A stretch of DNA of 64,000 nucleotides from Amoebophrya sp. A120 (taxonomy: Eukaryota; Protista; Dinoflagellata): contig CAJINV010000001.1 of assembly GCA_905178155.1 (NCBI GenBank), positions 15,252,142 through 15,316,141 of the forward strand, written 5' to 3'. The position numbers and the translations under genes are program-made. This document shows, in pieces, positions 2,072-61,000 of this stretch (within the stretch, counting starts at the first letter, position 1; each line of letters begins with the position of its first letter). The notes beneath the pieces are model-generated. The model saw nothing but the letters and a program-made list of their open reading frames with translations. It did no database searches and had not been told where the DNA came from.

Positions 2072-3754
2072 ATGGCGAGCGCGACGGGGAACATCGTGGT
2101 AATCGAGCGCGACTCGCTCGACTATATGGAGAAGGAGCAGATCCAGTTCGACGACAGCGAGTACTACAACATGCGGGTCAACAAGCCACAAACGCTGCGG
2201 TTCGACCGATCGAAAATGGGGCGGTTGTTCGAGGAGATTTTTTTCGCTGGGTTCCTGCCGATGATTGTGTACTTCTCCAGCCTCTTCTTTCTGAGCACCA
2301 GCCTGCTGCGCCGCAATATCCCGAACGCCGGAACCTGGATCGCGCGGATTCTGGCGGTCTTGGTGGCGGTGGCGCTCGTTCTGTGGCCCGCCGGGTCACT
2401 GAAGAAGTCGACGTGGGACATACGGAAGACGAAGGTTATGGAATGGAAAGCAGTTACCTTCCTTTGGTACCAGCTGCTCTGCTTTCTCGTCGTCGGGATT
2501 TTCAGTATAGATTTTTTGGATGAAAGAAAGAATTTGACTGCTGTGCGCGCCTGTCCATTTCCAGTTTGTACTATTGCACGCTGTGACCACAGACAGATAC
2601 AAATTGATTCCTCCGCATTTCAGTTTGACACCGTGTTTACAGCGAAAGAACTTCAGGTATCGTCTACGCGGATACCATGTACACCGAGTACGTGATGCCG
2701 TACCAAAATTACTTGGACAAGAAGTGGATTGAGCAACCCATTTCTCCACTTCTCCAGTCGGGGCAGAACTTTCAAGATGCCGGCGTCGTGTCTTTCTCCG
2801 CAGACAGCTACATAGATCGGGCGCACAACGCCTGCTTTCGGTATTTTTGTGATGTTGTGTTGCTTGGCAGAGCTGTTTTGCTGTGACGCGGCTTTAACTA
2901 AATATTCCACTGTGTCGAACAAGTGCGTTCAATTCATTTCAAAATGCAAAACTCAACTTCTACTATCAGGGGCGCCGGCGTTTCGTATTGTGTCGTGCCC
3001 ATCGTGCAGGACACTGCGGGCACAGGCGACCGGACCCGGCTCCCCAGCAGCCCGACCGGGAGCTACGATTACTTCGCTGTGGGCACCGACTGCTGTAGTT
3101 GCCCGGGGACCGGCGATTTCCAGTGTGGCGATTGGGATTTTTCGGAGAGCATGGGTATCAAATGCAAAAATGTCTGGGTCTGGAAGATTGCGAGATTTGT
3201 CATGCTTGTCTGGGATGACCAGAAAGTTTGTGATGCGTGTCCAAGAAGAGAGCCTTTTGTCTGTCATGCAAAAACGCAGTTTGTCATGCGAAAAACGCAA
3301 TACAACGAACTGCAGACATTTCTCATGCTTGGGTGGGCATTGCAGAGCACTCACTATTCCCAACGCAGCATTACAAGTTTCCAGACCCAGACTGACATAT
3401 GTGCATTTGATAATGGGCGGACTTCGGCAACTCGAAATGGAGCAGCGAGCGTTTTACCAGCTGGCGGTCGAGCAGTGGGAAGCCGCGTGGAACAAAGACT
3501 CGAAGACGCCCTTGTTCTTCCACTGGAAGAACAAGCCCTACGTCCAAATGAAGTACCTTCGCGACGACTTCAGCACGAGCATCTTCATGACCACGCTCAC
3601 ACTGCTGGCGGTTTTGCTGTTTGTAGCCTGCGCGCAGAACCAGATCCGGAGCATGATCTACGAAAGCTATGAGCAAGAGTGGCTGTCCGCGGCCGCGAAT
3701 GCAAGGGAAAAGAAAGAAGCAGAACACGGGGAAAGGTCCTATGGCGCTGCTTGA
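2072..3754 (+). CDS. Multi-pass membrane protein of unknown function with a Cys-rich luminal domain
   Basis: Exons 2072-2504, 2657-2840, 2970-3155, 3418-3754. Introns are GT-AG at 2505-2656 and 2841-2969, plus a non-canonical intron at 3156-3417. The spliced frame is continuous (…GIFS/IVYADTMY…ACFR/GAGVSYCVVPI…FSESMG/GLRQLEMEQRAFY…). Several hydrophobic helices and the motif YDYFAVGTDCC…FQCGDW. Confidence 0.8.
3156..3412. mobile_element. TIR introner (non-canonical intron), family A copy 1
   Basis: TSD ATGGG at 3151-3155 and 3413-3417. Left end TATCAAATGCAAAAATGTCTGGGTCTGGAA; right end TTCCAGACCCAGACTGACATATGTGCATTTGATA. Removing 262 nt restores the frame. Homologous to 60753-61004. Confidence 0.92.
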
Positions 3755-4483
3755 TCACAACAATGCTACTCTACAAGTGAATTAGGAGCAGGACGATGAT
3801 GTAGTAAAAATGAACCCTCCTGGATGAATTGTGGGCCATTTTTTTGCCGTCACACATCCTACACCTGATTTTTTTCCCAGAAGTAAGTTTGAGCACGATG
3901 GATATGGAACACAAGCCATCGTGGCCAAAACTACTCCTGAACCTTAAACAAATGAACCTCGACGACTGGCAAAACTGTTGCAGATGAAAACCAAAACACC
4001 TCGCTGTACGATAGATCGCGCAGTGTTGTTGAAGACGGATCAGCAGCGTGCTTTCGTAGAAAAAACTGATCCAGCTTTTTGTTTGCAAAGTTCCACGACA
4101 GATACTAGATCTCAGCTTGATGCCATCACTGAATATTGGTTCTTACATACTTACACGGGAAATTTCGCGAGATGGAAGATCGACAAATTTTGGGTCGATC
4201 AGGCACTACCGCTAGCTTAGATCTTGGATCGCTTTTCGTCTTCTGATACTTGCTTTTATGGTTTTCGAAATCGTGATATTTCTCTTGCCTGCAGCCGCAG
4301 CGACAACACCAGCGATTTTTTAGCGACTCCCCATTGTATTGCGAATGTTTTTATGAACGTAAAGTTTTAATAGCACCTGCCGTGACTTCGCGCAGCCCCA
4401 GCTACGTGGGAGGTATGGTCTCGAATTTTCCCAACTCCACCAACCCCGACGACAGCGTCAGAAATAGTATTTAGTCAGCGAAA

Positions 4484-11892: not shown

Positions 11893-14235
11893 ATGCCGAC
11901 CCCGTTATTGTAAGGAAAAATCCCCCCTCCCCATATCGAAAACGAAATTTCTGATGCTGTATTTGAGGTCACAAATCGACTTGTAATGCTAGAAGGCCAA
12001 GAGCCGCAGTCGTGGCCTCGTTTGCAGGCAATTTGTCGTGCTGTTTCCCGCTCTCAGCTGCCTCCTATCATGCTGAAGATGCAAGGCTTGACCACGGCGC
12101 CCAGCACTACAGTCCGCATCTTTTCCCGTGTAGCATGACAAAGCTGATTTGTGACAACAAATCTGCATCACAGATTTCCGTTTTGATATGGGGAGGGGGG
12201 ATTTTTCCTTTTGATACCCGTACTTCAAGTTCACCCGGTTTTGGCAGACCATCGACCCGGTCATTGCCAATGTGCAAATTCCAAAAGAGGTGCGGATCGA
12301 AAACCGACGACTCGGTACGCTGTACCTGTTTTTGATGCTCGGAGCCAGCACCTGGGTGCTGTACAATTTCATCTATTCCAAAGCATGGAACATGGAAGAA
12401 ACCCCGGTGCCGGGTATCATCGAGCTCTGGTCACAGTTGCCCTCAAACCTCACGGGGAACTCCGCAAATGAAAAGCACTGCGCCGACATGAACTACTACG
12501 CTTATGATTGGTCGTCCACCTGGACCTACCGGGCAGAAAAGTGCATGATTTTGCCGCCCGGCGAAAACGTGCACAAGATGGGCAACAAAATGTACATCCC
12601 CACCTACGTCCAGGACAGCTATCAGGTTCCAAATGAATGTTGTTTCTTGCTCATTCTCATTTTTCACTAAAAGATAGATGTGTTGGGCAGGCATCTGATG
12701 TGATTCTATTCTAGTAGCCTACAAGGACCTGCATGGCTTCGATTAAAGGATTTCTTTTTGAAAGCTTGTGAGAGCGCAAACCTAACTACTGCACACGACA
12801 GGTCGGTGGCTCAACGAATTGGACCTTGAATTATTTTGCGCAAAACGTCGATGAGATGTTTATTTACTTCAACCACGGTTACGAAGTGCACGACAAGGAT
12901 GAAGTGAACCGCGGGCGGGACAAGTTCCAGGCGACGAAGGGAATCGTCGGGGAGCAGGCCGAAACGATTCACGGCGAGAAGGGGCAGCTGCTGACGATAA
13001 TCCAGGACGAGGGTGGGAAGCGGGAGTGTATCGTTTCCGGGAAATCGCATTGGTACCCGAAGGACACGAAGAACGGGATTAACGGGAAGCTCAGGGAGTG
13101 GCTGGCCTGCGGCGGCGTTTCCCTGGACAGCGTCAACAACGACGTGAAAAGCGGGTCACCGGAAGAAACGGGAATCCCGACATTTCGGATGTCCGGCTTG
13201 AAGCTGCACTTCGATTTGACCTACCACAACACGTACGGCGGTTCGTGGGAGACGCACCGCGAGAAGGACTGGGAGGGGGTCGTCTGCTACATCCGGGTGC
13301 GCGTCGGCCCCATGTGGAACAGCAACCAGTACGCTAGCCACACCGTCGTGTACAATGGCGTGTACCCGAACACCAACGACCCGGCAAAAGCCGACCCGCA
13401 GTCCGCTTACCGCTACCGCTACCAATACGGTGTGGGTTTGGAAATTCAAGCCGCCGGGGCGTTTGCCTTCCTGGACTACCAGGCGCTCATCACCGGGTTG
13501 GTCAACGCACTCGTGCTGCTGGCGTTGCCGACCTTGGTCGTGAAGTTCGTCGCCTTGTATCTCGTCGGTCCGTCTTCCACGGTGTACGCCAATGTGCAAC
13601 GGGAGCCGCTGGACTTCAACACGGCCATTTACGGGTCCTGCGCGCGGAAAATCATCGCCATGCAGACGTTCAAACAGTTGCTGCAGCAGCACGGCGCGAC
13701 GGAGGAGGGTTTGACCAAGGAGCACTTGCGCAACATGCTGCTGAAGGCCATGCACCAGTGCGTGGTCGACGGCAAACTGGACGAGGAGGCCATCGGGTTG
13801 ATCGCCGAGGCGATGTTGCAGGGCATGGATCAAGACGGGGACGCGCTGATAGAGCTGAACGAGTTTGTCGAGACCTGCAGCGTTGGGGAAAACGTCACCT
13901 CGACGGAAATGGGCCGACTGTTTGACCGCAAGCGGCAGCCGGGTTATCTCGAAAGTCTGTTAACCGACTCGAAAATGAAGGCCATGCTGGCCCACGCGCA
14001 GGGGAAGGGGGCCGGGGAGAGCATTTACGCCAAAAAGAAGCGGTCGTCTAGAAGTCGGGGCAGCTCGCCGGGGGGTGGTTCTGCTCGGAGCAGCAGCCCA
14101 CCGGCGGCGGGGAAGGCGGCGATTCTGGCGGAGGGCGAGGAGGCACTGCGGGCAACGGCGGTACCGTACCCCTCAGAAGGCTTCGATACGGCACACGAAC
14201 TTGAATTCGCAGATGTCGTGTCTTCAAGGGGCTGA
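11893..14235 (+). CDS. P2X receptor-like ion channel with C-terminal EF-hand
   Basis: Exons 11893-11905, 12222-12625, 12802-14235, with an introner at 11906-12221 and a GT-AG intron at 12626-12801. The N-terminus VQIPKEVRIENRRLGTLYLFLML matches the P2X pre-TM1/TM1 region. YQYGVGLEIQAAGAFAFLDYQALITGLVNALVLL matches the P2X YG…G…TM2 region. EF-hand loop DQDGDALIELNE. Confidence 0.8.
11906..12216. mobile_element. TIR introner (non-canonical intron), family B
   Basis: TSD CCCGT at 11901-11905 and 12217-12221. Left end TATTGTAAGGAAAAATCCCCCCTCCCCATATC; right end GATATGGGGAGGGGGGATTTTTCCTTTTGATA. Pairing extends inward (GTCACAAATC/GATTTGTGAC). Removing 316 nt joins MPTP to YFKFTRFWQ. Confidence 0.92.
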
Positions 14236-15152
14236 AGACGAACAAGTTGTTTTTCTGTACTTCGTCGAGTTGATTTGGTAGATTTCAGAATGGAGACAGG
14301 AACTCAAAGTAAAGAGCGATACGATAGTAAATTACTTCCGGACCACCCTCTCGTGTAGAAATTGGAGTTTGAATTCGAGCAGTGTCACTATGCCGAAAGA
14401 AGTACAAAATTGATTACAAGATTGTTGATATTTCATTGTACAGAAAAGTAGCAGCCACAGCACTTTTTGTTTCTTGCGAAGATTTTCTTCTGACGACAAC
14501 GAATATGTAAATAAATCGGACACTTGATGCGATGAAAGGTAAGGTTTTCCAGCTCCTGCTTAGATAGAAGTTGAGCACACTAGTCACCGTGGGGTGAACG
14601 ATGAGTTTGTGCAAGTGACAGTGTTTCCTGAAATGCTCGGCCGTTCTTCGTAGCGGAGACTAGACTAAGTACATCAATACCTGTGTTGGCTTTCAACAGG
14701 GTTAGCCTTACCAGATCCACTTTTTTGAACTAGGCAAAGATCACGTCATGCACGATCACATTGGCTGTGGTTTGTCATTGTCTTTATGGTGATCGGGGGA
14801 CAAACTATCTCTATCAACAGCAGCATATTGGCGGTCGTTCCTTTGTTGTGTCTTTCGTGATCCCATACTTGTTCTTGTGCGTTTTGCATCCGGACAGCAG
14901 TATTTTTGCAATCGCAACAAGGTTGATCCTAATGAGATGGATCGTTGACCCGTTCTCTTTTAAACCCTTTACTGGGTAACATCATCATCATCAGATCAAC
15001 CATGGATTACATGTTAATATGTGAGTATTACATGTGAAAAGCGACCCGCACAGATGGAAAACATTGGAGTAGGGAATTTCCCCGAAGCTGCCAAGTTTCT
15101 CATCCCCGGTGCTCGATGTTGCTAGTGCTACGGTACAGTCACAATATAATAT

Positions 15153-20169: not shown

Positions 20170-23100
20170 ATGGAAAATACCGCCCCTGGGGAGAAGAAGG
20201 AAGCGCAACTCGCCGAGCCGCTTCTGACCGCTGCCGTTGACCCAGCCACGTTACAACTGCAACAACAGCAATTGCTGCAGCAACAGCAACTGTTCCAGCA
20301 ACCCCCAGCAGCGAGCGCGTATACTCCGCTTGCAACTACAGCCAACCCAGCCCAATTCCTTCCGCAACCCGAGGGAGAGGCACCTCCTCCCAACGTGGTA
20401 AGCGAGGGCGAAAAGCAAGTTCTCTCAGTTCCGGTTCTTCCAACGAAGTTCCTGGTCACCCCGACCGTACCTCCGACTGCAGCCGACGTGACTACAACTG
20501 GTCCTGTAGCAGCTGCGCCACAAATTACGTCAAGTCCGGCTGCTCCGGCACCTCCTGCAGTTCCAACCTACGCGACCGACCCAGCCAGTGCGCTGCCTGG
20601 CGTCCAAGCTGCACCGGTATCGCCGGACTACTTTCACCAGGCACAGCCCATCGGGTTCAGAGTCACTAAAGGCAGCGTAAGTGGCGCGACCACCCCGAGA
20701 GCCGGGTTTTCCGTGGATTCCCCCTTCACCCTTGCGGTTCCCTCGCTAGACGTTCGCACCGGCGGGGCACTGGTGCGTCAAGTTCAAGGCGTCATAGAAC
20801 CGCACTGGGCACTGGATCTACCGATCCTGACATGTATTGAATGTTACCTGATCTTTTTGGTTCAGAGGATGCCATTGTCAGTGAATTTATATATGCAAGT
20901 AGTGGACTTAGCGTTAGGCGGTAGCTGACGAGCTCGATCACTAACGCATACGCAAAATGTCGCAAAAGGTTTTTTCTTGTAAACATCATCGAAAAATAAT
21001 CAAACTGTTCTATCACAGCACGTCGTCGCAGCAGATCTCGAAGTCTCGGTAAGGAGGTTAGTGTGAGCAAGAGTCCCAGCACCGTCGGAATGCAACCAGA
21101 CGGACGCGACCTTGGGCAAACCGAAAGAGACCTTGTGCGTGCGAGAAATCTCGCGCAGTTTTTCCTCGCCGAGCGCAACGGTATTTTGGCGGAAAGGAAC
21201 GAGCCGGTGCCTGATTTCTTCCAGCGCGGCCCCTACTCCGCTCGCAGCGCCCAGCCCGGAGGCATGTACAACTACGGCTTGAACCCTAGACTTTACAGCC
21301 CACCGGTGCCGCTGCCGGCACAGGCGGACCCGATGGTGGGGCTAAAGACGGCACAGGACTACTACACCGCCTACCAGCCGCTAGGGCTTCCCCCGTCTCC
21401 CCCGGTCGCCGGTATGATGCAACCGGCGCCACAGATGGGACAAGCACAAGCCGCACCACAACCCGTGGCCGCACCTACACCCGACGTTGCAGTTGCGAGT
21501 TCGAGTGCTGTTCCCGCCGTTTCATCACAAGACATGCCCGGTAGCAGCGGACAAGCACCCGCGATGGGTATGGACGTCGCAAGTGCCACACCGTACATGA
21601 ATATAAATAATCTCCCAGCACCAGCAGCTCCTGCGGATCAGGCGAAACTTCCCGATCCGCGCGCGACGCAGCAGATCGGATTCAATCCGCTTCCCGTAGC
21701 GCAGCAGATGCCGCCGCAGTACTATCCCCCCGTCGCGGCGTACCAATACCCGCAGATGTCGCCCCCCCAAGCCAACATGCTTCAGCAGCAGCAGGGGTAC
21801 GCACCGCCGTCGGCCCCCATGTTCGCGAAGACCTCCATGCAGCAACCACTCATGCAGCAGCAGCCGCAGCAGGCCGCGCAAGCCACAGCCAAAGCGCTCA
21901 AGACCGGTCCCCCGCCGGCGCCGCCAGGCAGTGTGGAGATGACGGAACCCAAGACGGCGGAGGGCGCGGTCGAGAAGAAGCACGCGAAAAAGAAAGCCAA
22001 CGTGCACGCGGTTCCCGGCAAGGGCCGTGGGGGCGCGCTGGGCGCGCTGATGATGGTCGCTTCGGTAGTTGCCGCGGAAGAGGACGACGAGGACGACGGG
22101 CAGCCCAAGCAGTCGTTTATGGAATTGATGGAGACGATCGAGCTGCCCTTCATCATCCGGGTACCGCTGAACTACATCATCTTGCCCATCGTCGACGCGT
22201 TGTTGTGGATATCCTGTGCAAAAGTATCGTACTCGTATTGTCATCATGCATTACAAATCCTGTTCTTAAGGCAAATTAGCATTGCAAATTTTAATTCTCA
22301 TGCTGAGGAAATTTGTAATGCATTTATACGAGTGCGATACATACTTTTGCACTGCATAGTGGATTTGGTTCACGATTTTATGGCGCATCATCAAGTTGAT
22401 CCTGATCGGCCCCTGCTGGCTGATCTACCACGGGGTTTGCTTTTGCCTCGGCGGAGGCGACGAGCTGATTTACTGCGTGTACGGGGTCGCCTTAGCGTTT
22501 TTTGGCGGGCAGTACCACACCGCAACCGCCGCGATTGCCGCGTTCAACATGGGCGGGGGCGGCGAGATTTTGGAACACTTCGCTGCGATCCGCGACAACA
22601 TCAAGTGGATCGCGCGGCAGACTACGATGGACGACGAGGAGGACCTGGATGGGGACGGGGTCGCGGACGTGCACCAAATCTCCAACCGGGAGTTCGTGAA
22701 GCGGAAAATTCTCCTCTTCCTCGAGCACTGCGAACCCGGGCGGCTCACCGACGCGATCATGGCCACGTACGGAGGTACGGTGGGCGTGTTGCTTACCGTC
22801 AACTGCGCGGCCGCCGCTTTCACTAGTCTCGGCGTGTCTATGGCCATGCTCTCGGGAAAAATCGCCGCCTACACACTAACGCCACTCATCCTCAAGTGGA
22901 TGCAGGGAAGATACAAGTACATAACTTAACATTATTATCTTGGGAGTGCTGGAGTCTCTGCTGACAGTACTAACGTGCACAACTGTATTTATTTGTATTG
23001 AGCAGAAGATGCTGAAGAAATAAGAATAGTTGTTTTGTTCTGACGGTAAAATCAAAAAAAAAATTGCAAAAAAAATCACAAATACTCTGAAACAGGCAAT

Positions 23101-27600: not shown

Positions 27601-27893
27601 TGTGCGACGACGTCGTGAAGTTGTGTTCGCTGGAGGGAGATTGCGACGAGGAGGCGTTCGTGCCGTTCAAGGGCGTACCCGTGGACATGTTCCCGCACAC
27701 CGTGCACTTGGAGATGATCTTGTACCTGGAAAGGTACAAACCAGCCCGGCACGACCAAATCTGGCAGGGAGAACCGCTGTGGGTGCAGAAAATGAAGGCG
27801 AGAGAGGAAGCAGAACGACGGGCGGGAGTCGCGGCTGAGCCCGATGCGAAAAGACGGAAGAAAGGCGCCGAGGTGGAGAGGGACGAGAAGTGA
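24670..27893 (+). CDS. TRM2: tRNA (uracil-5-)-methyltransferase, TRM2/TrmA family
   Basis: Exons 24670-26926 and 27109-27893 (GT-AG). Motifs GYRNKCEL, GFWRLVMCR, SFFQTNS, LDVCSGVGTIG, IVDPPRTGL, LVYVSCNP, VDMFPHTVHLE. Confidence 0.93.
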
Positions 27894-28423
27894 TGAATGC
27901 ATGCGCTCCCTTGCGTGAAGACGAAAACTCCTTGGCAGCTTAGTCTATGTTCAAAAAATGTTACGACCACGACGTCAAATAAACCAACATGTGCTCCTTC
28001 CGAACCGGCGGAGGTGAAGACTCTAAAGAGTGAAGCTCGACGCCGCTCATCACAATCTATCGTATCGTCGTGTTCCGTTTATTGTCATGTGGATCGTTGC
28101 ATGTGCTGCTGCTGCCACAAGAGCGACAATATGAGAAATTAAAAGAAGAACATGCGCACTAGCAAAAAGAAAAAAAGATCATGCCCACGATGAACATATA
28201 CTTGTCTGGTTGCAAAAGATCAGAACTGACGTTACCTTTTTTTTGTCAAAGCGTTCTGAGTAAACGTCAACCGCTGAAAGCGCATAGGCGCGTTAGATTC
28301 CCTCTGAAAGTCCGTCTTGTTTCTACAGCACAGCTCAGCTGCGCGTGTATTCTTCTCTTCTACTTAATTTTGATTTGCGTCTTTTGCTTTTGAGCATGGT
28401 CCGCACTACATGCAATAGTAAGC
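27803..28423 (+). repeat. TRM2 3' end and downstream flank (source of local duplications)
   Basis: 27803-27863 matches 33004-33064 with one mismatch. About 27897-28423 aligns with indels to about 31522-32073. Confidence 0.85.
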
Positions 28424-30143: not shown

Positions 30144-31008
30144 TTTCGATCTCCTTTGTTCGCTTCCGAGAGTTTTTGATGTGGTCACTACCAATAATGA
30201 GATGCTATCTAGTTTGGGGAGGGCGCCAGGGAAGGGCGGTGGGCCGCGGTGCCCGGGGCGGCGGGCGATTTTGCAAATTCCAGAGCCGTAGTGGCTTGGG
30301 GCACTCTCTTCAGCCCGTAACTGTTTCGGACTTGGCGTCGGGTGGTTTTCATAATTTTAAATACTCCTCGAAGTTCTGAAGTTCGAATTCCATGCAGAGG
30401 AGCTGCGAATTTTGGGAATTCGAAAAAATGATCCATTTTTGAAAATTGAAATTTTTTTTTGGGAGAGTGGATTGTTTCGGGAATTCGAAAAAAACATTTG
30501 AAATTGGGAAATTGCAAAAATTTTCTCGATGGTGAGCGATTTTGGAAATTCGAGAAAATTTCTAAGTTTGAAGATTGGAAGGCTTTTTCTTCAAGTAGCG
30601 CTACAACCAAACGAGAGAAGCAAAAACTTCACCCGGATTCCGTGTATCCAATATGAACAAACAAACAAACAAGATTGGAAGGAAAAGTCTTGGTGTTGGA
30701 CCATTTTGGGAATTCGAGAAATTCTTAAAGGTTTGGAAATTGCAAAATAATTTATGGTGTGGGGGATGTTTTCGAACTGCCCCCGCTAGGCAGGAGGAGT
30801 TTTATGGATTGGGAAGTGGCAGTGGCACACCAATGGATTGCGAATCTTAGATACTGAGCCCCATTTCAATTATATACTTCTTTCAAATGGATTTATCGAG
30901 GGCGTTCAAAAATTTCAGGAGTTTGATTGAATTGGAAAAATTAACTCCAAATCTCAGGCCCCGGAACTCCTCTTCCATTTTCCCATCTACCGGTTTGGTT
31001 CGAAGTTC

Positions 31009-31521: not shown

Positions 31522-32073
31522 ATGGATGCGCTTGCTTGATGAACACGAGAACTTGGCAGTTTACTCTATGTCTAGAAGTTGTTATGCTGACGGCAAATGT
31601 TGCTACCTATGAATAATAGAAAATCTCCAATATGTGCTTCCGCACCGGCGGTGAAGACTCCAAAGAGTGCAGCTCGACGCCGCTCATATCAATCTATCGT
31701 GCCGCCGTGTTCCGGTACTGTCATATAATTCGTTGGATGTGCTGATACAGGAGCGATGACATAATAAATAGCGAGAACAGTTGCACTCGCAAGAAAGATC
31801 TTAATGCGAGGAAAATGTTTTGCTTGTCTGGTTCTGGTACTGCTACTGGTTGCAGAACGAAGATCTTCAGCGCTGCCGTTTAATGTTCTTTGTCAAAGCG
31901 TTGAGACTCATCTTCATGGTTGGTATCTCGTCACAGGCACGTTAAATTTTATATTTTTTCAAGAAGTCCGTTTTGCTTTTGTTTCTACACAGTTCAGGTG
32001 GGTTTCTCTTCTGTCTGGATCTTGTGTCTTCTGCTTTTCTGCATGGTCCGCATCATCATATGTAATAGTAAGC
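31522..32073 (+). repeat. Diverged copy of the TRM2 3' flank
   Basis: Shared blocks include ACCGGCGG(AG)GTGAAGACTC-AAAGAGTG-AGCTCGACGCCGCTCAT, TTTGTCAAAGCGTT, GCATGGTCCGCA and AATAGTAAGC. Confidence 0.85.
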
Positions 32074-32154
32074 ACATCGAGTTCGAGTTGTACTTCGTAT
32101 AAAATCGTCATCGTCAAAAATCAAGTCCAAGCCAAAGTTCTTTAGCTGGAATAG

Positions 32155-33076
32155 GTTTTGAGTTACCTGCACTGCTCTGGTCTACTTCGTGGTCCTACCG
32201 AAAAAAGGACAGCTGCCGAGCAGGAGTTGCAGCGTTTCCGGGATAGTGTCACGCATGATATTGATAAGGAGATAGTACAAAGAGTGTCTTCTTTTTTGAA
32301 GAAAGTGCTCCGACTCCCAGGCGGGCCGCAGGTTGTTACCAAGTGTATTCCTGGCGCATTTACAGAGACGAGCCGTGCCTTCCGCGGTGAATTTGCACGC
32401 AGTGTGGAACTCAGCGAATGGGAAACCGTGTGCGATCCAATAGAGGCACGCTGCTCAGGTTGTCCCAAAATTTCGACCGTACTCGACGAATCATTTCCCC
32501 CTGGGCGTTATCGGCCATGGATTTATGGCAAGCACGTTCTTCTGGGTTACATCATGTGCAAGGACGAGTTTGACGTCGACATTTTAAGCCTCCCGGGAAC
32601 GGTATTAATTGCGGAAGAATCGAAACGAAATTAATTTAGAATTTCTTTATTCATTTACTCTCGGTTTAAGACTATGACAAACACGAATTTTAAAGCCGAG
32701 CCATTGCAACACCAACAGAGCCTCACTTTTGCACCATTGGTATTTGTGCATGAGCGGTCTCTGCACTTTCTCTAGAAAATTGGAATTTCAATACTTACAG
32801 TACGAGACGAGCGAAGACAGTACCCATTTGGGGCGTGATTTTGGTCATCCCTTCCAACCGACGTTAATTCGGCTGAGCCGTTCAGAAGCTATCAAGACAA
32901 AAGCAGAACAAATCAAGTTTAGGACAAAACTAGAAGCGTTTGAGGCAAACCCTAAAGCGTTCATAGCAAACGCGAGAGCAGAAGCTAAACAAGCTATCAA
33001 GGCAGAGGAAGCAGAACGACGGGCGGGAGTCGCGGCTGAGCCGGATGCGAAAAGACGGAAGAAAAGTGGGGAGTGA
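32155..33076 (+). CDS. Orphan hypothetical protein ending in a copy of the TRM2 C-terminal tail (5' end missing)
   Basis: Exons about 32155-32601 and 32801-33076 joined by an in-phase GT-AG intron at 32602-32800. Ends EEAERRAGVAAEPDAKRRKK as TRM2 does. An in-frame TAG at 32152-32154 precedes it and no start ATG was found. Confidence 0.5.
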
Positions 33077-33214
33077 GTAGTGGAACAAAAGTGATGAATG
33101 CGAAAGTGAATGGATGAATGGCTGCGCTTACTTGAAACGAACTCGACGACTTCGTCACATGTTGCTTTAGTATGTAGTGAGGTCACGAACGTTCTAACCT
33201 AGCGATCTTTTTGA

Positions 33215-33773
33215 CAGGCAGTGCGCAAAACGACCGGCAGTTATCAAGCGGGCGGAAGTGTTTTTGGACATAAAAATTTTTCAATTATCAAGCGGGCGGG
33301 GCTTTGCCGTCAAACAAGCCCGGTCGAAAACTATCGATTCCCGCTTGATAAAACGACGCAGGGGAGCCGGCAAAAGGGGCGCCCTTCTGAGGCGCCCACC
33401 GCCTTGGTTTCTGGCGATTTGGGGCGCCCAAAAAGGGGCGTCCAAAAAGCAGCGCTCCAAAAAAAACAGCGAATCCGCATGGTATGGGCCTCATTTTGCC
33501 CCACATTCGGGCCCCGCAAAAGACGCCTTCAAAGTCCGCCATTTCAGAGGCGGACTGAAGGCCAGAAGATGCGGCATTTTGGCAAAAAAAAACAAAAAAA
33601 ACAAAGTCCGCCAAAAGCAAAAAGCCAATCCGCATGCTATGGGCCCGATTTGGGGCTCCCAAGAGGCCGACCCTGGCGCGGGCCCCGGCGGGGCCATAGC
33701 ATGCGGGGAAGGTTTTTCGATTCGAAACCAAAAGGAGGCCGCCTCTGGATTGAGATTTTTAGCGACTGCCGTG
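33215..33773. repeat. GC-rich, A-tract intergenic element with internal direct and inverted motifs (possible non-autonomous transposon)
   Basis: TTATCAAGCGGG at 33241 and 33285, inverted at 33340. AATCCGCATG(G/C)TATGGGCC at 33472 and 33627, partial inverted copy at 33691. Weak terminal inverted similarity and no TSD. Confidence 0.45.
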
Positions 33774-34232
33774 CCGTCGTGCATAACATTACCCACGATG
33801 GCATGGCGGGCAGAGAAGTTGCGTCCTTTTTTGGCGTGAAGACAAAAAGATCGCCGTGACCTCACTACCTCCGCGGACGCGGCTATTATTGGTAATACTT
33901 GCGACCACGACATCATCAAGATAAACAACACGTGCTTATGAACGGGAAGGTCACTCTAATAAAGAGTGGGACGCAAAAAATTCTCGTTTTGTGGAGGTGT
34001 CAATCAAACCCTCGTGTTCCGTAATTTAGAAAACAAAGGGGAACACTGAGAGGACGTTCTCAGTTTCATCTGGTCACTGGGTCCAGGGTGATGTACGGAT
34101 TTGCAAGATCATCTAATTTCGGATGTTGACCAAAAATCGCGAGAAGAAAGTGTTGATGTTCTAGACGCATGACCGGTCACGGCGCGTGACCAGGCTGCAA
34201 AAAAGCAAAGTTAAGTACCGACTTTCATCAAC

Positions 34233-36438: not shown

Positions 36439-37890
36439 ATGTTGGCTCGTAACTTTGCCAGACGGCTCGCGCCGAGCTTCCGCGGCGCCGCGGCTAGCAG
36501 TACTGGCGTACGGGCATTTTCCACCCAGATGCAGGAGTTCAAGGTCTACAGATACGACCCGGAATCGGGAAACAAGCCAGAAATGAAGAGCTACTCCATC
36601 GACCTGAATACTTGCGGTACAATTTGATTTTCAGGATTTTGCTTTTGGATAGGTATGCTGGAGGGAGGTACGCCGCAAGCAACTGCAAGTAAGTATATGA
36701 GTTACGCTAAGAACGCGGTGCCCGTGATGAATCGAGGACAAGACTCATTGCAACAAGCATTTTAGCACACAAAAACTACAACAGGACCCATGATTCTGGA
36801 TGCCGTGTTGAAGATCAAGAACGAGGTGGACTCAACCCTGGCTCTCCGAAGATCGTGCCGCGAGGGTATCTGCGGGTCCTGCGCCATGAACATCAATGGT
36901 ATAGTGTTTCGTTGAAATACCCACGACAGCTCCTTGGTGCCATGCGAATGAATGTTAAAACTTGTGCAGTGTGTTTTCGTGGTTAAAAGAAGTCACTGGG
37001 TGAAAATAAAGTGATTGGATTTCCATTGTTCCAAACAGGTAAGAACGGTTTGGCGTGCCTGGAGTACATTGAGCCAGGAACCAAGGCGATCGAGATCCAG
37101 CCATTGCCACACACGTGAGGAGCTTTGATTTGATTTGTTTTTCTTCATGCGGACTCACATTCATTTTCATTCATCAGCTAATCAACGTGACTTATTTTCA
37201 TTGGCAAAGCGAAAAGTCTTTGCTATAGCTCCCCTCGCGAACACCTAACTACAGGTACGTGCTGAAGGATCTGGTGCCCGATCTCACCAACTTCTACTCG
37301 CAGTACAAGTCTATCGAGCCGTGGCTGAAGCGAAAGGACCCGAAGCCCACCGGCCCCAACGGGGAGGAAGTAGAATACGCTCAGAGCCCGGAGGAGCGTG
37401 CCTTGTTGGACGGGTTGTACGAATGCATTCTGTGCGCGTGCTGCTCTACCAGTTGCCCGAGCTACTGGTATGGTTATTTACTATTTGGCGTTTTGAGTTT
37501 GTTGACGACTGTATGTAATGAGCACGATAAGCATCACAATGCTCACACATAATCTTTTTCGTGTAATAAAAATCGTTCATTTCCAACAGGTGGAACCCGG
37601 AGTACTACTACGGCCCGGCGGTGCTGCAGCAGGCCTACCGATGGGTGGTTGACTCCCGCGACCAGTACACGGAGGAGCGGTTGGCGTTCCTGAACGACAC
37701 CATGCGCCTGTACCGGTGCCACGGCATCATGAACTGCACCTCCTGCTGCCCCAAGGGGCTGGACCCGGCGAAGAGCATCGTGCAGCTGAAGAAGTTCGTG
37801 GAGGAGCAGTACAACCCGGAGTGGGAAAACAAGGTTGCCGAGGAGATGAAGAAGAACGTCGATCGTGCCGGCGGTTTGAGTTATGCGTAA
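36439..37890 (+). CDS. SDHB: Succinate dehydrogenase iron-sulfur subunit (mitochondrial)
   Basis: Exons 36439-36616, 36785-36898, 37039-37114, 37255-37467, 37590-37890, all GT-AG. Motifs [55 protein letters not shown]. Arg-rich transit peptide. Confidence 0.98.
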
Positions 37891-40072
37891 ACGACTGCGG
37901 AGTCCGGCCGGTTGCTTTGTTTATGATCTCCTTTGCAACGGGTCGGGCTCTGGGACAGATTGTACGGCACTCTGAATACTCAAACCTAGTAGCTACTCGA
38001 TGACGTTTAAAACAATAGTCTTCTAAATCCTTTTTCTTGAAAAGAGCGACAGTAAAAAGGCGAGTCGTATCACAAAGGTTCCCTGGCTGGAATCGCTGGC
38101 GACTCGTTGAGAAAAGAACGGCACATAAGCGACAGAATCTATCGGCAGAATATCTACGCGACGACTTTGTTTCGATATTATGACATTTCAGCAGCAGCAG
38201 TTTAGTACTTCCAAAAGATGGTACATAATGTTTCGATATTAGACGAAAGCAATGGTGGTTCCGACCAAGCGGGTTGGACACCAGAGATAGTTGTACAACT
38301 TGTAAAAATATACCTACGGCAGGCACATCATTTCAGACACAGCAGAAGAAGCAAGTAAGTAGAGTATTCATCGGAAGGACATGGAATACCCTCTATTGAC
38401 ACGACATACTAACTTATACCTCCTCTAACAACTACTATACAATACGGTTGATGCACAGAAGGTGAAAAGCACTTCTGCAAAGAACGACACCTATCCCCGG
38501 ATGAACTAGTACCACGCCGATCCGCACGAAGCTTCACCAGGCGACGCGCGCGACCGGTAGAGAATTTTTTTTGATCTTTGAAACTTCATTTTTCCGTACC
38601 GCAACATGCTTATTGGGTGAACTTGTAAGCACGGTTTAGAAAGAATGCCCTGTACTTTTAGTGGTCTGAACTACTGCGCTTACAACATTTTTGGAAAGAT
38701 GCACAGCATTCTGCCGGTGCCTCAAACATTCTTGCTCTGGCGCTGCTAGCAGTGTGTGTGTATGATTCATTCGTGAAAGCTACAGCTGTAAGAAAGACCA
38801 CGTACAAACGACTACAATTTTTATCAAACGAACTGAGACTGACTGTTGGGGATAGTTTGCGACCGCGTGATCTCTTCATCAGGAGTGCTCGCTCTGGTGA
38901 TGTTGTTGACTTTTTGCACAACTTAAATGCAAAGCGTAGTCAGCTACAGATCACAATTCTAACCAACGCCCGTCCTGAATTTTCCCCATCATAAAGTTGC
39001 AGACATAAGGGCAACCCAAGGCAAAGTAGTAAAACTCTAGCGTGCAGTACTTCTATTAAGGTCCGCTATAGAGTCATAAAAACACATCCGAACAAAAGTT
39101 GATAACTTTGTTTGAGATAAATCGCGTAAACTTGGAAAAAGGAGGTATGCAGTAGCAGCGGTAGCGTCGTGGGTGTAGCTATGATACAATGCGCTTCGTT
39201 CGAAACGGGTCGAGATTCGAAAATCTTGGCGTGCGTACAGCGAATTGGTCAGCAGCTCCCCCACGTCGCGACGAAACCTAAAGATGACTTTTCAAAAGAG
39301 TAAAAAATGTTATGTGCAGACAGAATCTTCAGAATTCCCGAATCTTCTAGCATCAGCTACATTTTCCGCTACTCGTCTGACAGGGTCGTTGTTACTCGCA
39401 CGACAACTACTACGAAAAAAGCTTACAACACAGCGACGAGTTGAACTAACAGAAACCAGTAGACTCGAACCGTGAAAAGAGTCCGAGCGCTTGAAAATGC
39501 AAGAAAAAACGCGGAAGTCGAAGATGGTTGTGAAGTTTTGAAGAAGAATATCAAAGCGATTGTTGTCATGCGTGGTTGCATGATCACGAGACGGAGTCTC
39601 ATCGTGAATCAATGGTTGTGTTGTTCTCAATCAATTTGTCAGCTTGCAGATGAGGTTCACTACGCGTCAAGTTCTTCCTGGCTTTGCGTTTCGTTTTTCA
39701 TTTTGACTTTGACAACGATATCACCAGCCTTTCAGATCTAAAATGTCTCAAGGAGAGCTTCCTTTTTGGATCATCATACGTAGTATGAAAGACCAAGAAG
39801 GTCTAACTGACCAGCAGTACTAAACCATGCCGGTCTATAAACAGCATACTATATTATAGAAGTTAGCCTCGTCGCAACAAAAACTAGTCGCTAAAATTTT
39901 TTTGAAGTACTCAACAGGCTGTTCTGCAACGCAGAAAGTGAAATAAGTGATTATCGCACTCTACTTCAACACATCATTGTCAGTGACTCAACCAAAAATC
40001 TTGTTTTTTGCCTTGTCCCTACTTCTCAGTCAGACAGCACCAGTAGCAAAGAAAACGATTCCACTTTCCATC

Positions 40073-43269: not shown

Positions 43270-43600
43270 ATCACCGGCGACGCCGCAGTTTATTACATGA
43301 CGACATTTGTTGTACGCTGTAAATTCGTTTTTCGGGTCAAGTAAAGTCTCTTGTGTTCCATGCACTGCAGGAATTTTCTCTTTGCGTGCATTCCTGCTGA
43401 ATTTCTTTGGATCTGGACCGACTATCGTTTCTGCAATTGGAACACCACGTGGACGAAATTTTGTCGATCCATTGTCGACCCGTTTAAGGTTTTGTACAGG
43501 TTCCATGCGCATTTCAGATTGCGCCAGCCCTCCTAGGCAAGTGATTTTGGTATAGCAAAGAGAAAGACACTTCTGTAGCCTCTTGATCAAGAATGTGAAG

Positions 43601-55428: not shown

Positions 55429-57576
55429 ATGCCGAGTGACATGTTCCGTATGCTGAGCCAGGGGGCGAATTTTCGGCAGACCCGGAAGACGATACCCCCA
55501 AAAAACAGTGCGCTCAGCACACAGGAAGTAGGAATAAACAAGGCGAAGAGCAACGTGAAGTCCTCAGCTTCTACAGCACCGAGTTTCAGCAGTAAGCCAA
55601 GCGCTTTAAATTTCTTCCAGACCGGCGTTACCGGTTCTGATGAAACGGAAAAGGCAGAAGAAGGAGCGAGCGACGAGAACGAAAATTTGGAAGAAGGGTC
55701 AAATACAGCGGAGGATGCGCTTGATGGCGCTGACGACCAGAGAAACAATGGTCAAAATAAGATATCAGAGGACGAACTGAGGAGGCAGCACAAGATACGA
55801 AACGTGAGTAGCGATTGTCCTGCGCCCTGGGCGACTTTCGACGACTTCCAAGTTCCGAGCTGGATCGTCAAAAATGCGCGACGGGGACTGCGGTTCGAAA
55901 CGCCAACGCCGATTCAGATGCAGTGCTGCCCCGCAGTGTTGACAAAACGGGATGTGCTTGCGTCCGCCCCGACCGGGAGCGGCAAAACCATGGCGTTCCT
56001 GCTGCCACTGCTTGCATCTTTAGAGGCAGACCGATCAAGAACAGCGGCTGCCGAGACAAAGAATAAGCCGCAGGAGCAGGAGACGAGCAACAAAATAACG
56101 GGGAATAATAAAAAGAAAAAGTCCATCAAGAAGAAACAAGGAAATAAGGCAGAGGTTGAAGAGTCCACAGCTACCACTACGACCGACGACAGCGACAATG
56201 GCATCCCAGCCCCCCGGCTCGTTGTCGTCGACCCTACGCGCGAGCTCGCACAGCAAACGTTGCGGGAATTTGTGAAGCTTGCGGAAGGGCGACTAACGGA
56301 CTTTAGTCCGAGTCTGCTAGATGACGAAGGTAGTTACGGGGAGGAAACGATTGTTGCAGTCAGTACACCGCAGAAACTGGAGAAAATGCTGGAAGAGAAA
56401 AAAATCTCGCTGAAAAACTGCCGGTATTTTGTGCTCGACGAGGTGGACAAGTTGCTGGACTTGGGTTTCCGCGAGCAAATCGACAATGTCTTGTCCTACT
56501 GCAACACGGAACAAGCAACGACCCGTCCGGCCACGCTCTTCTTCTCCGCGACCCTGCCGGAAAACGTGGTAAATCTCGCGGAAACGGTGTTGCTCAATCC
56601 TTTGACAATCCACGTCGGACTGGGCTCGGCCGCCGCGAATCCCGATGTGGAGCAGAAGCTGGTGTTCATCGGGAAGGAAGACACCGGGAAGCTGTTCACG
56701 ATCAAAACCATGCTGAAGACGGGAGAGCTGAAGCTTCCCTGTATCGTTTTCCTGCAGAGCAAGGACCGGGCGCGGCAGTTGTTCCAGGAATTGCGGCACG
56801 AGCCGGCCTTTGCGGGCGAAAAGCGGGTAGACTACATCACCGCGGAACGGAAAAAGGAGGAGCGAGACACTGCTGTGGAAAACTTCAGAACCGGGAAGAC
56901 ATGGGTACTTACGGGCTTTTTTTTTGAATGCTTTCATGATGCTTCTAGTTCTAGCTCTTTCGGAAAATATTGTAAATGACAAAAGGAACAAACGCAAATG
57001 CTCACCTCTCAAACCCTTGCAACATGAAGTGAGAAATTTGCACTAGACGTGCACTAACATCACACTTTGATGTTCTCTCAATTCAACTCACAAAAGGTGT
57101 TGATCTGCACGGATTTGATGAGTCGCGGGGTAGACTTGAAGCACGTGGAGATGGTGGTAAACTACGACTTACCGTTGAAGCAGTCCACCTACATTCACCG
57201 CATCGGGCGCACGGGGCGGGCCGGAAAGCAGGGGAAGTCCGTGACCTTCTTCACGGAAGACGATTTCCCGTTTCTGCGACCGATCGTGAATGTCGTGCGA
57301 AATTCCGGGTTTGCCGTGGCCGAGTGGATGCTGCAACTAAAGAAGCCGCGGAAGCACCGACAAGAACGCGGCGGGCAAATTGAATTCCACCGGCATATCG
57401 CACGAAAAGACATCCGAACCGGTGGCGTGAAGAAGAAAAAAGTCATGAAAGGAAAGGCGAACAAAGGCAAAGTAGCGGGTGCGAAGAATAAGCCCGCGGA
57501 AAATCCTGCTGGCGGTGATAGCGCGAAGATGAAAGAACCCAAAAAGAAGAAGAAAGCAATGAAAAAGAAGGAATGA
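55429..57576 (+). CDS. DDX52: DEAD-box RNA helicase DDX52/ROK1
   Basis: Exons 55429-56904 and 57097-57576 (GT-AG). Motifs PTPIQ, APTGSGKT, PTRELA, DEVD, SAT, FLQSKDRARQLF, WVLICTDLMSRGVD, HRIGRTGRAG. ROK1-like N-terminus DMFRMLSQGANF. Confidence 0.9.
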
Positions 57577-58039
57577 CACTGACGAAAGGTCCTGCACCAA
57601 TGATTTTATCTGCCAGTGCGGAGGTTCATCCCTTTGTGGACGTAGGCTCTAAGTTTGTTGCGCGACGAATTTGCATGAGCAAAATCATCTTTGTACTGCT
57701 CTGCTGAGCGGATTGTCCTGACAACCAGGACTTTCTTCGATGCTGCCCGATGTTCTCATCAAAAACTCACTTTCCTCTCTGAACCTCGTTGAATGTCCGA
57801 ACTAAGCGAGGAGGTCTCAAAGTCTCTTGACAAGTGACTGCTGTGTGTTTCTTGAGTGATCGCGAGAATGGTTTCATCTTGTTTTATTTTCAAATCGTCC
57901 CCGAAGTGGTCGCGCCACCCTCCCGTCCACGTTGATGTGGCCTCATTATGTCGGTTTTCTTAAGTACGTTAGATCTGGTGCTACCTCGTTTGCCACTTTG
58001 TTGAACTTCTAAGAAGTAGACCTGACCACTAGTACAAAA

Positions 58040-61000
58040 ATGTCGGGCGCTGTTTCCAGCCCCACGTTCTCCGCCGGAACGGGCGACACGGCTAACATGC
58101 ATGGGGCGCGGATGAAGATTCCGCTGAGTTGGTTTGACGCGAGCATTGAGAAGCAGCAGTATGTTCGTGGCAACATCGGTGGGACGACATCAAAAACGCC
58201 TTCGTCCTCCTCTTCCGCACCCAATTCCCGATCAAACTCGAAGACCTTGCTGCCCGGCGGCCCGGACAACGGTGCCGACCAGGACTACCAGCAGGGCCTA
58301 GAATTACTGCAGGGGAGAAGTGTGGTGGCTAACCCGCGGCTGGCGGCCTTCTACTTCCGGCGAGCAAGCGGGAAGGGACACTCTCGAGCGGAGTACATTA
58401 TGGCCATGCTGCACAAGACCGGCTACGAGGGGATTTTGCCCAGTGCCCGCAAGTACCTGTTCTTCCTGCAGCGGTCTGCACGGCATGGGCTCGCGGTGGC
58501 ACAGCTCGAACTAGGTACTGAGCTTTTCGGGCGTGTGATGTTCGTGTCTGTTGGAAGAGAGGTCATTTGGAGCAAAACACTATCTGTCTCATTTGTGCTT
58601 CGTTGGTTCGGGTTCGTTTGGTTGCAGTTACAACAAACTCGTTTTCATCCACAGGACTTCTGTATCTTCGCGGCTTTCTGCTCCCGAAGGACGTGAATCG
58701 GGGGAAGCGACTGCTGCGCAGGGCAGCCCAGTGTGGCGAAGTCGGCGCCTGGAAGCACCTGGCTCTGTCCGCCACGGGGGAGGAGAGTAGTTCCTGGTGG
58801 GAGAAGGCTGCAAAACAAGGGGACGCTGAGGCACTGTATGTGCTCGCGATGCGCGGTCTCAACCAGTACCCGGACGCCACTTCGCCGCCGATGTCTTCGT
58901 CTCAGGCCATTGAGCAGTTGAAGACGGCAGCGAACAAACAATGGCCTGAGGCGTTGCACGCGCTTGGTACTTCTTGTTCTTTGTACTTGTTGGTCTGAGG
59001 TGCTTTGTCGTGTTGGCCACCAGGAGCATCGAGCTAGTTATCTGTTATAGTACTTTATTGCAGGTTCAGTTTCTGCTTCTGGTCGGTCGCACACAACATG
59101 CCGAGCCATCGTCAGTTTCTCGGAGAGTGGATTTTTTTGACACCACTTTAACAGGTGAGATGTATCGCGGTGTGGCGCATCCGGCGTACTCCTACCGTCT
59201 GAAAGAGCACATGATCGGGCAGCTTTTGCGTCGCGACTGCGTGAAGTCCGCCCGCTACCTCGCGCTTGCCTGCGACGAGCTCTTAAACCGCCGCAACCAG
59301 CTGGAAAAGGAAGCCCGCGCGTACGAAGAGAAGCTGCTCACCTGCATGGGTGACTTTGACCAGGCAATCTCCTCGCAACTCCTGCTCGCCCGCGTTGTCA
59401 ACCGGTGGCGACACACGGCCACCCGGCGCAAAGCGCTGCTCCGTCGGTTGATCGCTAAGCGGGAGACCACTTACATCCGCCCAGCGTGGAAGATCTGGCA
59501 GACCAGCGTTTTGCGCCGCTTTCTCGACCTGCGCGTCGGGTTTGAGGAACCGTTTGAGTTCGGGAAAACGCTCGGCCTCTGCTTCGCGCAGTGGGCCTTC
59601 CGCGCGGTGGTCGTGCCGAAGAAGATGACGAAGATCGTGCGCGCGAACGCGAGAAAGAAAAACTTGCGGAAGGCGCTGCAGTCCTGGCGCGCGTGCACGA
59701 TCCGCCGGCGCATGGCGGTGTTTGTACTTGTGGAAGTGTTGAAGCAGAACTTGCGGAAAAAGTGCACAACTTTGCTCCCCTCCCAGGAGGAACGAAATTA
59801 CCGTCGGGGCACGAAATTGTTGGAAAAGATGCTGCGGCGCAAACTGTACCAGAGTGCGTGCTCAGCGTGGCGGTTGACCACTGTCCAGCGCCAGACGAAC
59901 GCGCGATTCGTGAATGAGGTTCGCACACTCTCCGACGAGAATCGCGTGCTCCAGCAGGACCTGCGCACGACCGCCCAGCGCCTGGCCGAACTCGAGCGCG
60001 AGGCGGCGGCTTGGAAAAAGCGGTACGACGAGGAACATACGCTGAACCAGCAGCTGCTGCAGTCGGGGCTATCGGGCGGCGCCTACAACCGGAAGTCGAC
60101 CGATACCACGGATTTTGTGCGCCAAGGCTCTCCAAACGCCGCACGGGAATCGCAACTGCGATTGCTCAACAGTGCGGGCGGCGGGAGCAGGAGCGCGTCG
60201 CCGGGACAAATTATGCCAATGTCCAGCGCGCAGGCGCACCTGGAACCGACGACGTTATTCCATCAAAGCACGGGAACAAACCTCTCCTTCAACCAAATCC
60301 CGACTACTACGCAACAAGGCAACACGACGCTGCTCCGGACGAGCAGGGGGCTTCTCGGGGGCATGGCTTCGAGCGCCAGCACCTCCCGAACAAACAGTAA
60401 AAAGGCTTCGCCTTTATCTGCAACCGGCACGACAGATCCGCACGAGATTCTCGGCAGATCAGCTGGCGGGCAGCTCTTCCTAGCGGAGGACGCGGGCGGC
60501 AGTGCTTTCCTCAACAGTGCACAGCACCAACAAGGAGCGACATCGTCAAGCCATGAGATGGTCTACCCTTCGCGAAGATCCTCCTGGTCCCCGAAGGCCG
60601 TGTTTCGGCCGGTGTCCAGAACCGCGGGCTTGGAACATCGAGAAGAGGACAGTGCAGTGGCCCAAGAACAGCAGCTTTGCGGGACTGGAACAGAACAGCC
60701 CTCGCCGATGAAGCGGCTGATGCAGCGGAAAATCATGTCCAGTCAGGAACGATATGCAATGCAAAAATGTCTGGGTCTGGAAGAATGCATGTTTGTCATG
60801 CTTGTCTGGCATGACTCTTGAATCTGTCATGCACGTTACCCAGGAGCTCTGTTTTTCTGTGATGCAGGAACGCAGTTTGTCATGCAGAAAAGGCAACACC
60901 TAGAAGCTCAGAAACTTGTCATGCTGAGCGAGCATTTGTGGCCTCATCATGAGACGCCACCCAGCATCACAAGTTTCCAGACCCAGACATTTTTACATTT

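What the first reader, a model, noticed from the sequence alone, without database searches (positions are those of the whole stretch)
3197..60972. Internal 9-mer (T/C)TGT(A/C/G)ATGC shared by three otherwise unrelated introner families
Seen in family A copy 1 at 3197, 3228, 3261, 3281 and inverted at 3368. In family A copy 2 at 60793, 60824, 60857, 60877, 60916 and inverted at 60964. In family B at 11981, a variant at 12033, and inverted at 12133 and 12165. In family C at 22313 and inverted at 22248. The TIR sequences of families A, B and C are dissimilar, yet all carry this motif in both orientations. I noticed it only once elsewhere (near 39564). Inference: a binding site for a common trans-acting factor, either the mobilising transposase or an RNA-binding splicing factor. 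I am not aware of it being described.
Basis: partly seen in the sequence, partly recalled or inferred. Interest (0 to 1): 0.8.

Follow-up and report, generated by a model that had tools for sequence, protein, structure and literature searches.

The report
Helically spaced motif unites jumping introns
Nearly all of the small transposon-like introns of this parasitic dinoflagellate-type genome carry the same 9-letter word at regular, helix-turn spacings although their inner sequences look unrelated, and the word is likely a docking site for one shared protein that copies them around the genome rather than a splicing signal.

Summary
Observation confirmed and extended. YTGTVATGC occurs 19 times against 3.75 expected; 16 hits lie in four elements covering 969 bp. 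All four have TAT-N7-AAAA ends and a 5-bp target duplication, the published Amoebophrya A120 introner signature. RNA contigs skip three exactly. In 619 kb of related contigs, 411 elements were found without using the motif. Of the 296 not selected by my query, 283 carry it, 39-fold over background. New: the sites form a lattice. The first inward site sits near 31, 42 or 52 bp from the end, and same-strand sites are 31-33 bp apart. Elements lie in both orientations to host genes. Motif-breaking changes are rarely inherited, yet arise after insertion at about the target-duplication decay rate. This favours a DNA binding site for a shared mobilising protein (0.6) over a splicing signal. No transposase was found and binding is untested. 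My paper searches found no description of the motif; the scan's earlier notes showed none.

The parts
3156..3412 (+). Introner A1, 257 bp, TAT...ATA, 5-bp TSD ATGGG (3151-3155 and 3413-3417); removed from RNA with one TSD copy (262 nt)
   Evidence: joint 3150>3413 in RNA contigs of X5 and X6 (one sample)
3197..3289 (+). A1 inward motif sites at 3197, 3228, 3261, 3281 (offsets 41, 72, 105, 125 from the left end); one-mismatch variant at 3320
3368..3376 (-). A1 right-end inward site (36 bp from the right end); one-mismatch variants at 3297 and 3337
11906..12216 (+). Introner B, 311 bp, TSD CCCGT (11901-11905 and 12217-12221); removed from RNA (316 nt)
   Evidence: joint 11900>12217 in X5
11949..12073 (+). 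B sites on +: 11949 (variant, offset 43), 11981 (exact, offset 75), 12033 and 12065 (variants, offsets 127, 159)
12104..12173 (-). B sites on -: 12104 (variant), 12133 and 12165 (exact; 75 and 43 bp from the right end, mirroring the left end)
22210..22358 (+). Introner C, 149 bp, TSD GTGGA (22205-22209 and 22359-22363). Splicing is inferred from frame only: removing 154 nt joins the frame of ORF 21000 to ORF 22360-22929
   Evidence: no RNA joint, where the host gene had no cover upstream
22248..22321 (.). C sites: 22248 (-, exact), 22279 (-, variant), 22295 (+, variant), 22313 (+, exact); the exact sites point outward
60753..61004 (+). Introner A2, 252 bp, TSD AACGA (60748-60752 and 61005-61009); removed from RNA (257 nt)
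   Evidence: joint 60747>61005 in X3, X5, X6 and not in DNA-type run X1
60793..60924 (+). A2 inward sites at 60793, 60824, 60857, 60877, 60916 (offsets 40, 71, 104, 124, 163)
60964..60972 (-). A2 right-end inward site, 32 bp from the right end

Best explanation
The 9-mer (fuller form RRAYYTGTVWTGC) is likely a subterminal DNA binding site for one protein, predicted to be the transposase or its accessory subunit, that mobilises a whole superfamily of TAT-ended miniature transposons which end up as introns. Shown: the elements share TAT-N7-AAAA ends and a 5-bp TSD; three of the four in the window are cut out of RNA; the motif is in nearly all families; its sites are phased; it is conserved. Inferred: several protein subunits sit on one face of the double helix. 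The first sits 3, 4 or 5 turns in from the cleavage end, further ones every 3 turns, and opposite-facing sites lie about 1.5 or 4.5 turns away. Together they would pair the two ends for cutting at TAT and insertion with a 5-bp stagger. A copy that loses sites would still be spliced but would rarely give daughters. Splicing would rest on the long end-to-end RNA hairpin formed by the family-specific TIR arms, not on the motif.
For: Ubiquity: 283 of 296 non-selected elements carry the motif, in 28 of 30 terminal clusters; the three top de novo 8-mers are its variants. Phase: first inward site at 31, 31, 31, 32, 32, 35, 35, 40, 41.5, 42, 42, 51.5, 54 bp (13 values from 7 collapsed groups; R 0.66 at period 10.5, Monte Carlo p 0.003). 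A same-strand pair at 31-33 bp occurs in 10 of 11 representative consensuses, and in 6 of 7 whose members never matched my query (joint null 5e-6). Opposite-strand neighbours cluster at 15-18 and 46-50 bp. Only 42 of 114 sites have a mirror partner, so the pattern is not mere TIR symmetry. Orientation to the host gene is free (largest family 41:30, p 0.24). Fixed motif positions change at 0.11 of the internal rate on inner branches and 0.36 on tips (Fisher p 1e-20). Copy-specific motif change tracks TSD decay in four age bins (0.011, 0.024, 0.024, 0.045 against 0.009, 0.027, 0.024, 0.032). Exonic copies keep the motif no better than non-coding ones (229 of 7821 against 8 of 504 sites). Four other element types with other ends have 0-1 exact sites; one of them has its own repeat (8 AGTGAAA in 866 bp). 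Precedent: Hermes BED domains bind subterminal repeats (PMC10368747, passages).
Against: No transposase was found: 0 of 87 ORFs of 300 aa or more had a transposase or integrase Pfam match. Farhat et al. report two putative transposases only in A25, none in A120, and argue against general transposase mobilisation. Even the closest copy pairs (under 5% apart) differ less in the motif than in inner sequence (10 of 660 against 96 of 2055, ratio 0.32). That fits per-copy selection unless copies are several transposition rounds apart. The TSD clock could itself be slowed by selection. Only 19 copies were called non-coding. Family C (outward sites, offsets 34-42) and the two values at 35 fit the phase poorly. 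The period peak is broad (10-11 at consensus level; 9-12 per copy). One protein would have to tolerate family-specific TIR positions 16-30, which are conserved within families (inner-branch rate 0.30).
Confidence: 0.6

Rival explanations
1. The motif is a redundant RNA signal: a splicing factor binds it, single-stranded or paired in the hairpin, and marks these introns for excision without U1. Sites on both strands let the element splice in either orientation.
For: The elements are spliced without GT-AG ends and most lie in exons (284 exonic, 19 non-coding, 228 unclear). Only 2 of 546 copies have no exact site. Close pairs still conserve the motif. U1 was not detected in A25 or A120 (PMC7789003). 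In B, opposite sites pair in the predicted fold.
Against: Phasing at about 10.5 bp relative to the DNA end has no obvious RNA reading. Decay of single sites tracks TSD decay. There is no orientation bias and no exonic advantage. One exonic 730-bp element with other ends has a single site (n=1, splicing not shown). In A2 the left sites do not pair with the right end in the predicted fold.
Confidence: 0.14
2. Dual use: the protein that binds the lattice on DNA mobilises the elements and also marks them on chromatin or nascent RNA for excision.
For: It accounts for both the DNA-type phasing and the residual conservation in close pairs. It would explain why this superfamily is tolerated at high density in exons.
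Against: There is no direct sign; decay after insertion is within error of the TSD clock.
Confidence: 0.13
3. The motif binds a host chromatin or transcription factor that helps transposition or silences the insert, while several different transposases read the family-specific TIR arms.
For: TIR positions 16-30 differ between families yet are conserved within them. The motif is somewhat above expectation in background DNA (105 in 419 kb). No transposase was found.
Against: All families share TAT ends, the A-tract and an exact 5-bp TSD, as expected of one enzyme type. Other element types lack the motif. Some background hits look like decayed elements.
Confidence: 0.1
4. Passive relic: all families descend from one ancestor with internal repeats, and the motif has no function.
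For: The shared ends imply common origin; some families are detectably related (B3-B5 z about 40, weaker links among H, D-B8, F-G).
Against: The motif persists where the sequence between sites no longer aligns. Mismatch to consensus is 3.8% at fixed motif positions against 19.4% elsewhere.
Confidence: 0.03

Closest known systems
Amoebophrya A120 introner elements (Farhat et al. 2021, PMC7789003; passages, sections 11 and 16, and a term search of the supplement text read; figures not visible)
   Same: Non-canonical introns with inverted and 3-5 nt direct repeats; IR starts TAT, then 7 variable bases, then at least 3 A. Family lengths found here (about 109, 150, 210, 235, 252, 262, 279, 305, 311, 321 bp) match lengths listed for A120 in PMC12130899 supplementary file 8 (56 of 58 rows seen).
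   Different: The passages read describe only terminal IR and DR motifs, count 1,954 families and argue against general transposase mobilisation. A shared internal motif with a phased lattice was not in the text I saw.
Subterminal repeats of hAT transposons (Hermes; PMC10368747, passages) and, recalled, of CACTA/En-Spm elements
   Same: Short repeated sites inside the TIRs, in both orientations and asymmetric between ends; in Hermes they are bound by the transposase.
   Different: Here the TSD is 5 bp with TAT ends (hAT 8 bp, recalled). One motif is shared by families whose inner TIRs differ, the spacing is lattice-like, and the elements are introns.
IS3EU/GingerRoot DNA transposons (PMC10045372, PMC6839031; passages) and A120 family 38 (PMC12130899, filed as Ginger, '5-bp TSD, TA/TA termini')
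   Same: TA...TA termini and GC-rich targets; an integrase-like DDE enzyme is therefore the best candidate type for the mobiliser (inference).
   Different: Their TSD is usually 6 bp, here 5 bp. No subterminal repeats were mentioned in the passages (0 hits for the word). Whether family 38 carries the motif could not be seen.

Membership tests
Amoebophrya A120-type introner | Terminal inverted repeat starting TAT, 7 variable bases, at least 3 A | tested here: met
   All four window elements at one or both ends; logo of 822 ends
Amoebophrya A120-type introner | 3-5 nt direct repeat at the boundaries | tested here: met
   Exact 5-bp TSD in 4 of 4; TAT with 5 bp is the top class in an unbiased search, 363 of 939 candidates
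Amoebophrya A120-type introner | Removed from RNA without canonical splice sites | tested here: met
   A1, B, A2; no joint seen for C
Amoebophrya A120-type introner | Repeated in families | tested here: met
   Hundreds of related copies in fetched contigs; very high summed depth over A2 in run X1
Non-autonomous TIR transposon (MITE) | An autonomous partner with matching ends and a transposase | tested here: inconclusive
   None among 87 long ORFs or long TSD-paired candidates; only about 0.7 Mb seen and no whole genome held
IS3EU/GingerRoot | TA...TA termini | tested here: met
   497 of 561 copies end TAT...ATA without that being required
IS3EU/GingerRoot | TSD usually 6 bp | tested here: not met
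   5 bp
IS3EU/GingerRoot | Integrase-like DDE transposase | not testable with these tools
   No coding partner in hand
Ginger2/TDD | TG...CA termini | tested here: not met
   TAT...ATA; criterion from PMC6839031
hAT subterminal repeat | 8-bp TSD (recalled) | tested here: not met
   5 bp; the resemblance is functional only
Transposase-bound subterminal repeat (works-like claim) | Bound by the transposase as double-stranded DNA | not testable with these tools
   Only indirect: phasing and inheritance pattern
Intronic splicing cis-element | Strand preference on the pre-mRNA | tested here: not met
   Sense-strand counts 307 against 261 (p 0.06); elements in both orientations
Intronic splicing cis-element | Kept by selection in every exonic copy | tested here: inconclusive
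   argue against; one search is compatible; redundancy of sites limits power

The most novel reading that the evidence does not exclude
One protein reads a helically phased lattice of this motif in thousands of seemingly unrelated elements, moves them, and also flags them for removal from RNA. That would be a transposon system that brings its own U1-independent splicing signal and explains how most introns of this genome can lack GT-AG.
Probability: 0.13. Interest if true: 0.9.

Novelty: new variant of a known kind. Interest (0 to 1): 0.6.

Why it matters
How Amoebophrya's non-canonical introns spread and are spliced is an open question; the genome paper counted about 1,954 families in A120 and saw no mobiliser. 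A single conserved, phased internal motif would collapse most of these families into one superfamily. It gives a bait for finding the protein, a signature for finding the autonomous element, and a mutable site that separates mobility from splicing.

Tried and rejected
No whole genome is held, and the genome search could not reach the records behind my loci, so there is no genome-wide count. Viral collection: 0 matches. Prokaryote genomes: 10 scattered matches, near my chance estimate of about 5; not examined. Nine metagenome loci from other records were dropped as probable chance hits before all counts (129 of 138 kept). Introner sequences were not in the supplements searched: one search covered a file that holds no Amoebophrya rows; one search found 0 TGTCATGC in 13 of 14 files, file 14 not searched. 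Raw-read runs X8 and X9 matched only repeat ends and say nothing on splicing. The 2.5-kb and 1.1-kb TSD-paired candidates (L059, L009) show no recognisable transposase. No strong second shared motif appeared after masking. Left and right arms share few deviations (66 of 930 at positions 16-30), so there is no sign of arm homogenisation. RBFOX (UGCAUG), TALE (TGACA) and ApiAP2 (TGCATGCA) sites, all recalled, were considered and set aside: the two middle positions vary and break those words. One search crashed and was rerun. The capped protein-homology, structure and complex tools were not used.
Full report
Observation. The pattern YTGTVATGC has 19 exact matches in the window against 3.75 expected; none of 100 shuffles exceeds 8. 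Sixteen lie in four short elements, A1 3156-3412, B 11906-12216, C 22210-22358 and A2 60753-61004 (969 bp). Three lie outside: 37531, 39563 and 61964.

What the elements are. Each begins TAT, ends ATA, has an A-run near positions 11-14 and is flanked by an exact 5-bp duplication. RNA contigs that also skip ordinary GT-AG introns skip A1 (262 nt), B (316 nt) and A2 (257 nt), that is the element plus one duplication. The DNA-type run X1 shows no such joint at A2. The RNA label of those runs is the tool's guess. C has no joint and its gene had little cover; removing 154 nt joins two open frames, which is inference. This anatomy matches the A120 introners of Farhat et al. (PMC7789003). The organism name is my inference from that signature and from matching family lengths in PMC12130899; it was not tested by homology.

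A larger sample. Of 138 loci, 129 come from one set of contigs (JACKZZ01...) and 9 others were dropped. These contigs hold full-length relatives of A, B and C, so they are the same or a very close strain, not an independent lineage. Merged, they give 618,875 bp. A search using only ends and TSD gave 411 elements (2 in shuffled DNA). Of these, 115 match my query and 296 do not; 283 of the 296 carry at least one exact motif, and 28 of 30 terminal clusters do. After masking everything similar to an element, background has 105 sites in 419,135 bp, so the excess is 39-fold. De novo 8-mer ranking puts the three motif variants first, in 19-24 clusters each. The profile extends to A-rich bases upstream and allows T at position 6. 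Seventeen RNA-confirmed canonical introns of the window have 0 exact sites in 2,716 bp, a weak control.

Are the families unrelated? With motifs and the outer 15 bp masked, the A, B and C consensuses do not align above shuffles; B3-B5 are clearly related and H, D-B8 and F-G weakly so. I therefore collapsed 19 subfamilies to 11 and then 7 groups. The shared ends still point to one superfamily.

The lattice. Measured from the element end, the first inward-facing site falls at 31-32, 39-43 or 51-54 bp. At consensus level, 13 values from 7 groups give R 0.66 at period 10.5 (p 0.003); an earlier, looser version gave R 0.52, p 0.01. Same-strand neighbours lie 31-33 bp apart in 10 of 11 representative consensuses. 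That spacing was part of my query, so the fair count is 6 of 7 among those with no query-matched member (joint null 5e-6). Opposite-strand neighbours cluster at 15-18 and 46-50 bp. Only 42 of 114 sites have a mirror partner at the other end. Family C and one end of family E use an outward arrangement and fit less well.

DNA or RNA? Host strand could be called for 195 of 389 elements, consistently within contigs. Families lie in both orientations (41:30, 8:10, 10:11, 13:10). Using 561 copies collected without requiring ends or motif, fixed motif positions change at 0.11 of the internal rate on inner branches and 0.36 on tips; the terminal TAT behaves alike (0.02 and 0.28). Against my reading, the closest pairs still show a ratio of 0.32. 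However, copy-specific motif changes match the decay between the two TSD copies in each of four age bins, which is what free decay after insertion predicts, while inner sequence carries extra inherited change. Exonic copies keep the motif no better than non-coding or unclear ones (0.029, 0.016, 0.028; differences not significant). Caveats: the TSD may itself be constrained, copies with more than two TSD mismatches were left out, contexts come from a crude codon model, and 3-7 sites per element could hide a need for 'at least one'. All three RNA-confirmed elements fold into strong end-to-end hairpins (z -5.0 to -10.8), which offers a splicing signal that does not need the motif.

Other elements as controls. 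Four other types have 0-1 exact sites: a 720-bp repeat in the window and two loci, a 730-bp exonic insert with a 7-bp duplication, a 627-bp long-TIR element, and an 866-bp TAC...GTA element with its own repeat AGTGAAA (8 of the 11 hits in its 16.9-kb locus). None is shown to be spliced. Type-specific internal repeats fit element-specific binding proteins.

Mechanism. I commit to a subterminal DNA binding lattice for a shared mobilising protein (0.6), by analogy with Hermes (PMC10368747, passages). TA...TA ends suggest an integrase-like enzyme of the IS3EU/GingerRoot kind, but the 5-bp TSD fails their usual 6-bp criterion, so I do not file the elements there. One A120 family is already noted as 'Ginger, 5-bp TSD, TA/TA termini'. 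No transposase was found in 87 long ORFs. Binding, the identity of the protein and the role of the hairpin are untested.

Novelty. The elements are known. The shared internal motif and its phasing were not found in nine paper searches, nor in passages of PMC7789003, PMC12130899, PMC9860276, PMC11282704 and bioRxiv 10.1101/2020.10.14.339549. Figures, theses and subscription papers could not be seen, and the logos of Farhat's Fig. S25 may bear on this. Earlier notes of the scan showed nothing on this genome or sequence; the eight notes shown concern other genomes and were not used. Verdict: real, a new variant of a known kind, interest 0.6.

Noticed in passing
window 33171-33894; L034 7696-8451; L033 15988-16715: A repeat of about 720 bp (75-78% alike) with a terminal and a subterminal inverted copy of one 14-mer, then a short GC hairpin and no 5-bp TSD. 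The layout recalls non-autonomous Helentron/Helitron2 elements (recalled). It has its own internal repeats and 0-1 copies of the 9-mer. In L034 it sits between 170-bp direct repeats.
   Followed up: partly
window 14955-14993: A 39-bp stretch carried by about 450-490 RNA reads of run X8 with foreign flanks on both sides; possibly a captured piece of an abundant RNA.
   Followed up: no
L029 8318-9047: A 730-bp element with CGG ends and a 7-bp duplication inside coding sequence; length matches A120 family 26 in PMC12130899. It contains telomere-like TTTAGGG units.
   Followed up: partly
L010 11405-12270: An 866-bp element with TAC...GTA ends, palindromic TIRs and eight AGTGAAA copies in both orientations; a possible relative of A120 family 38. 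ORFs were listed but not searched.
   Followed up: partly
L052 14695-15321; L051 537-645: A 627-bp long-TIR element without the motif; length matches the Mutator-type A120 family 65.
   Followed up: partly
window 37256-37750: A gene that looks like succinate dehydrogenase iron-sulfur subunit ([15 protein letters not shown], label from recall); the outside motif hit at 37531 lies in its apparent GT-AG intron.
   Followed up: partly
window 30268-30748: An AT-rich tract with short inverted ends and repeated GGGAATTCGAAAA-like units; possibly another element.
   Followed up: no
window 27803-28405 and 31627-33101: Diverged duplicated segments (72-88% alike, 3.6-5.2 kb apart), probably a tandem gene duplication.
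   Followed up: no
window 12216 and 3155 (run X5): A contig joins a family-B end to a family-A start with 29 other letters between, showing two introners about 30 bp apart at another locus.
   Followed up: no
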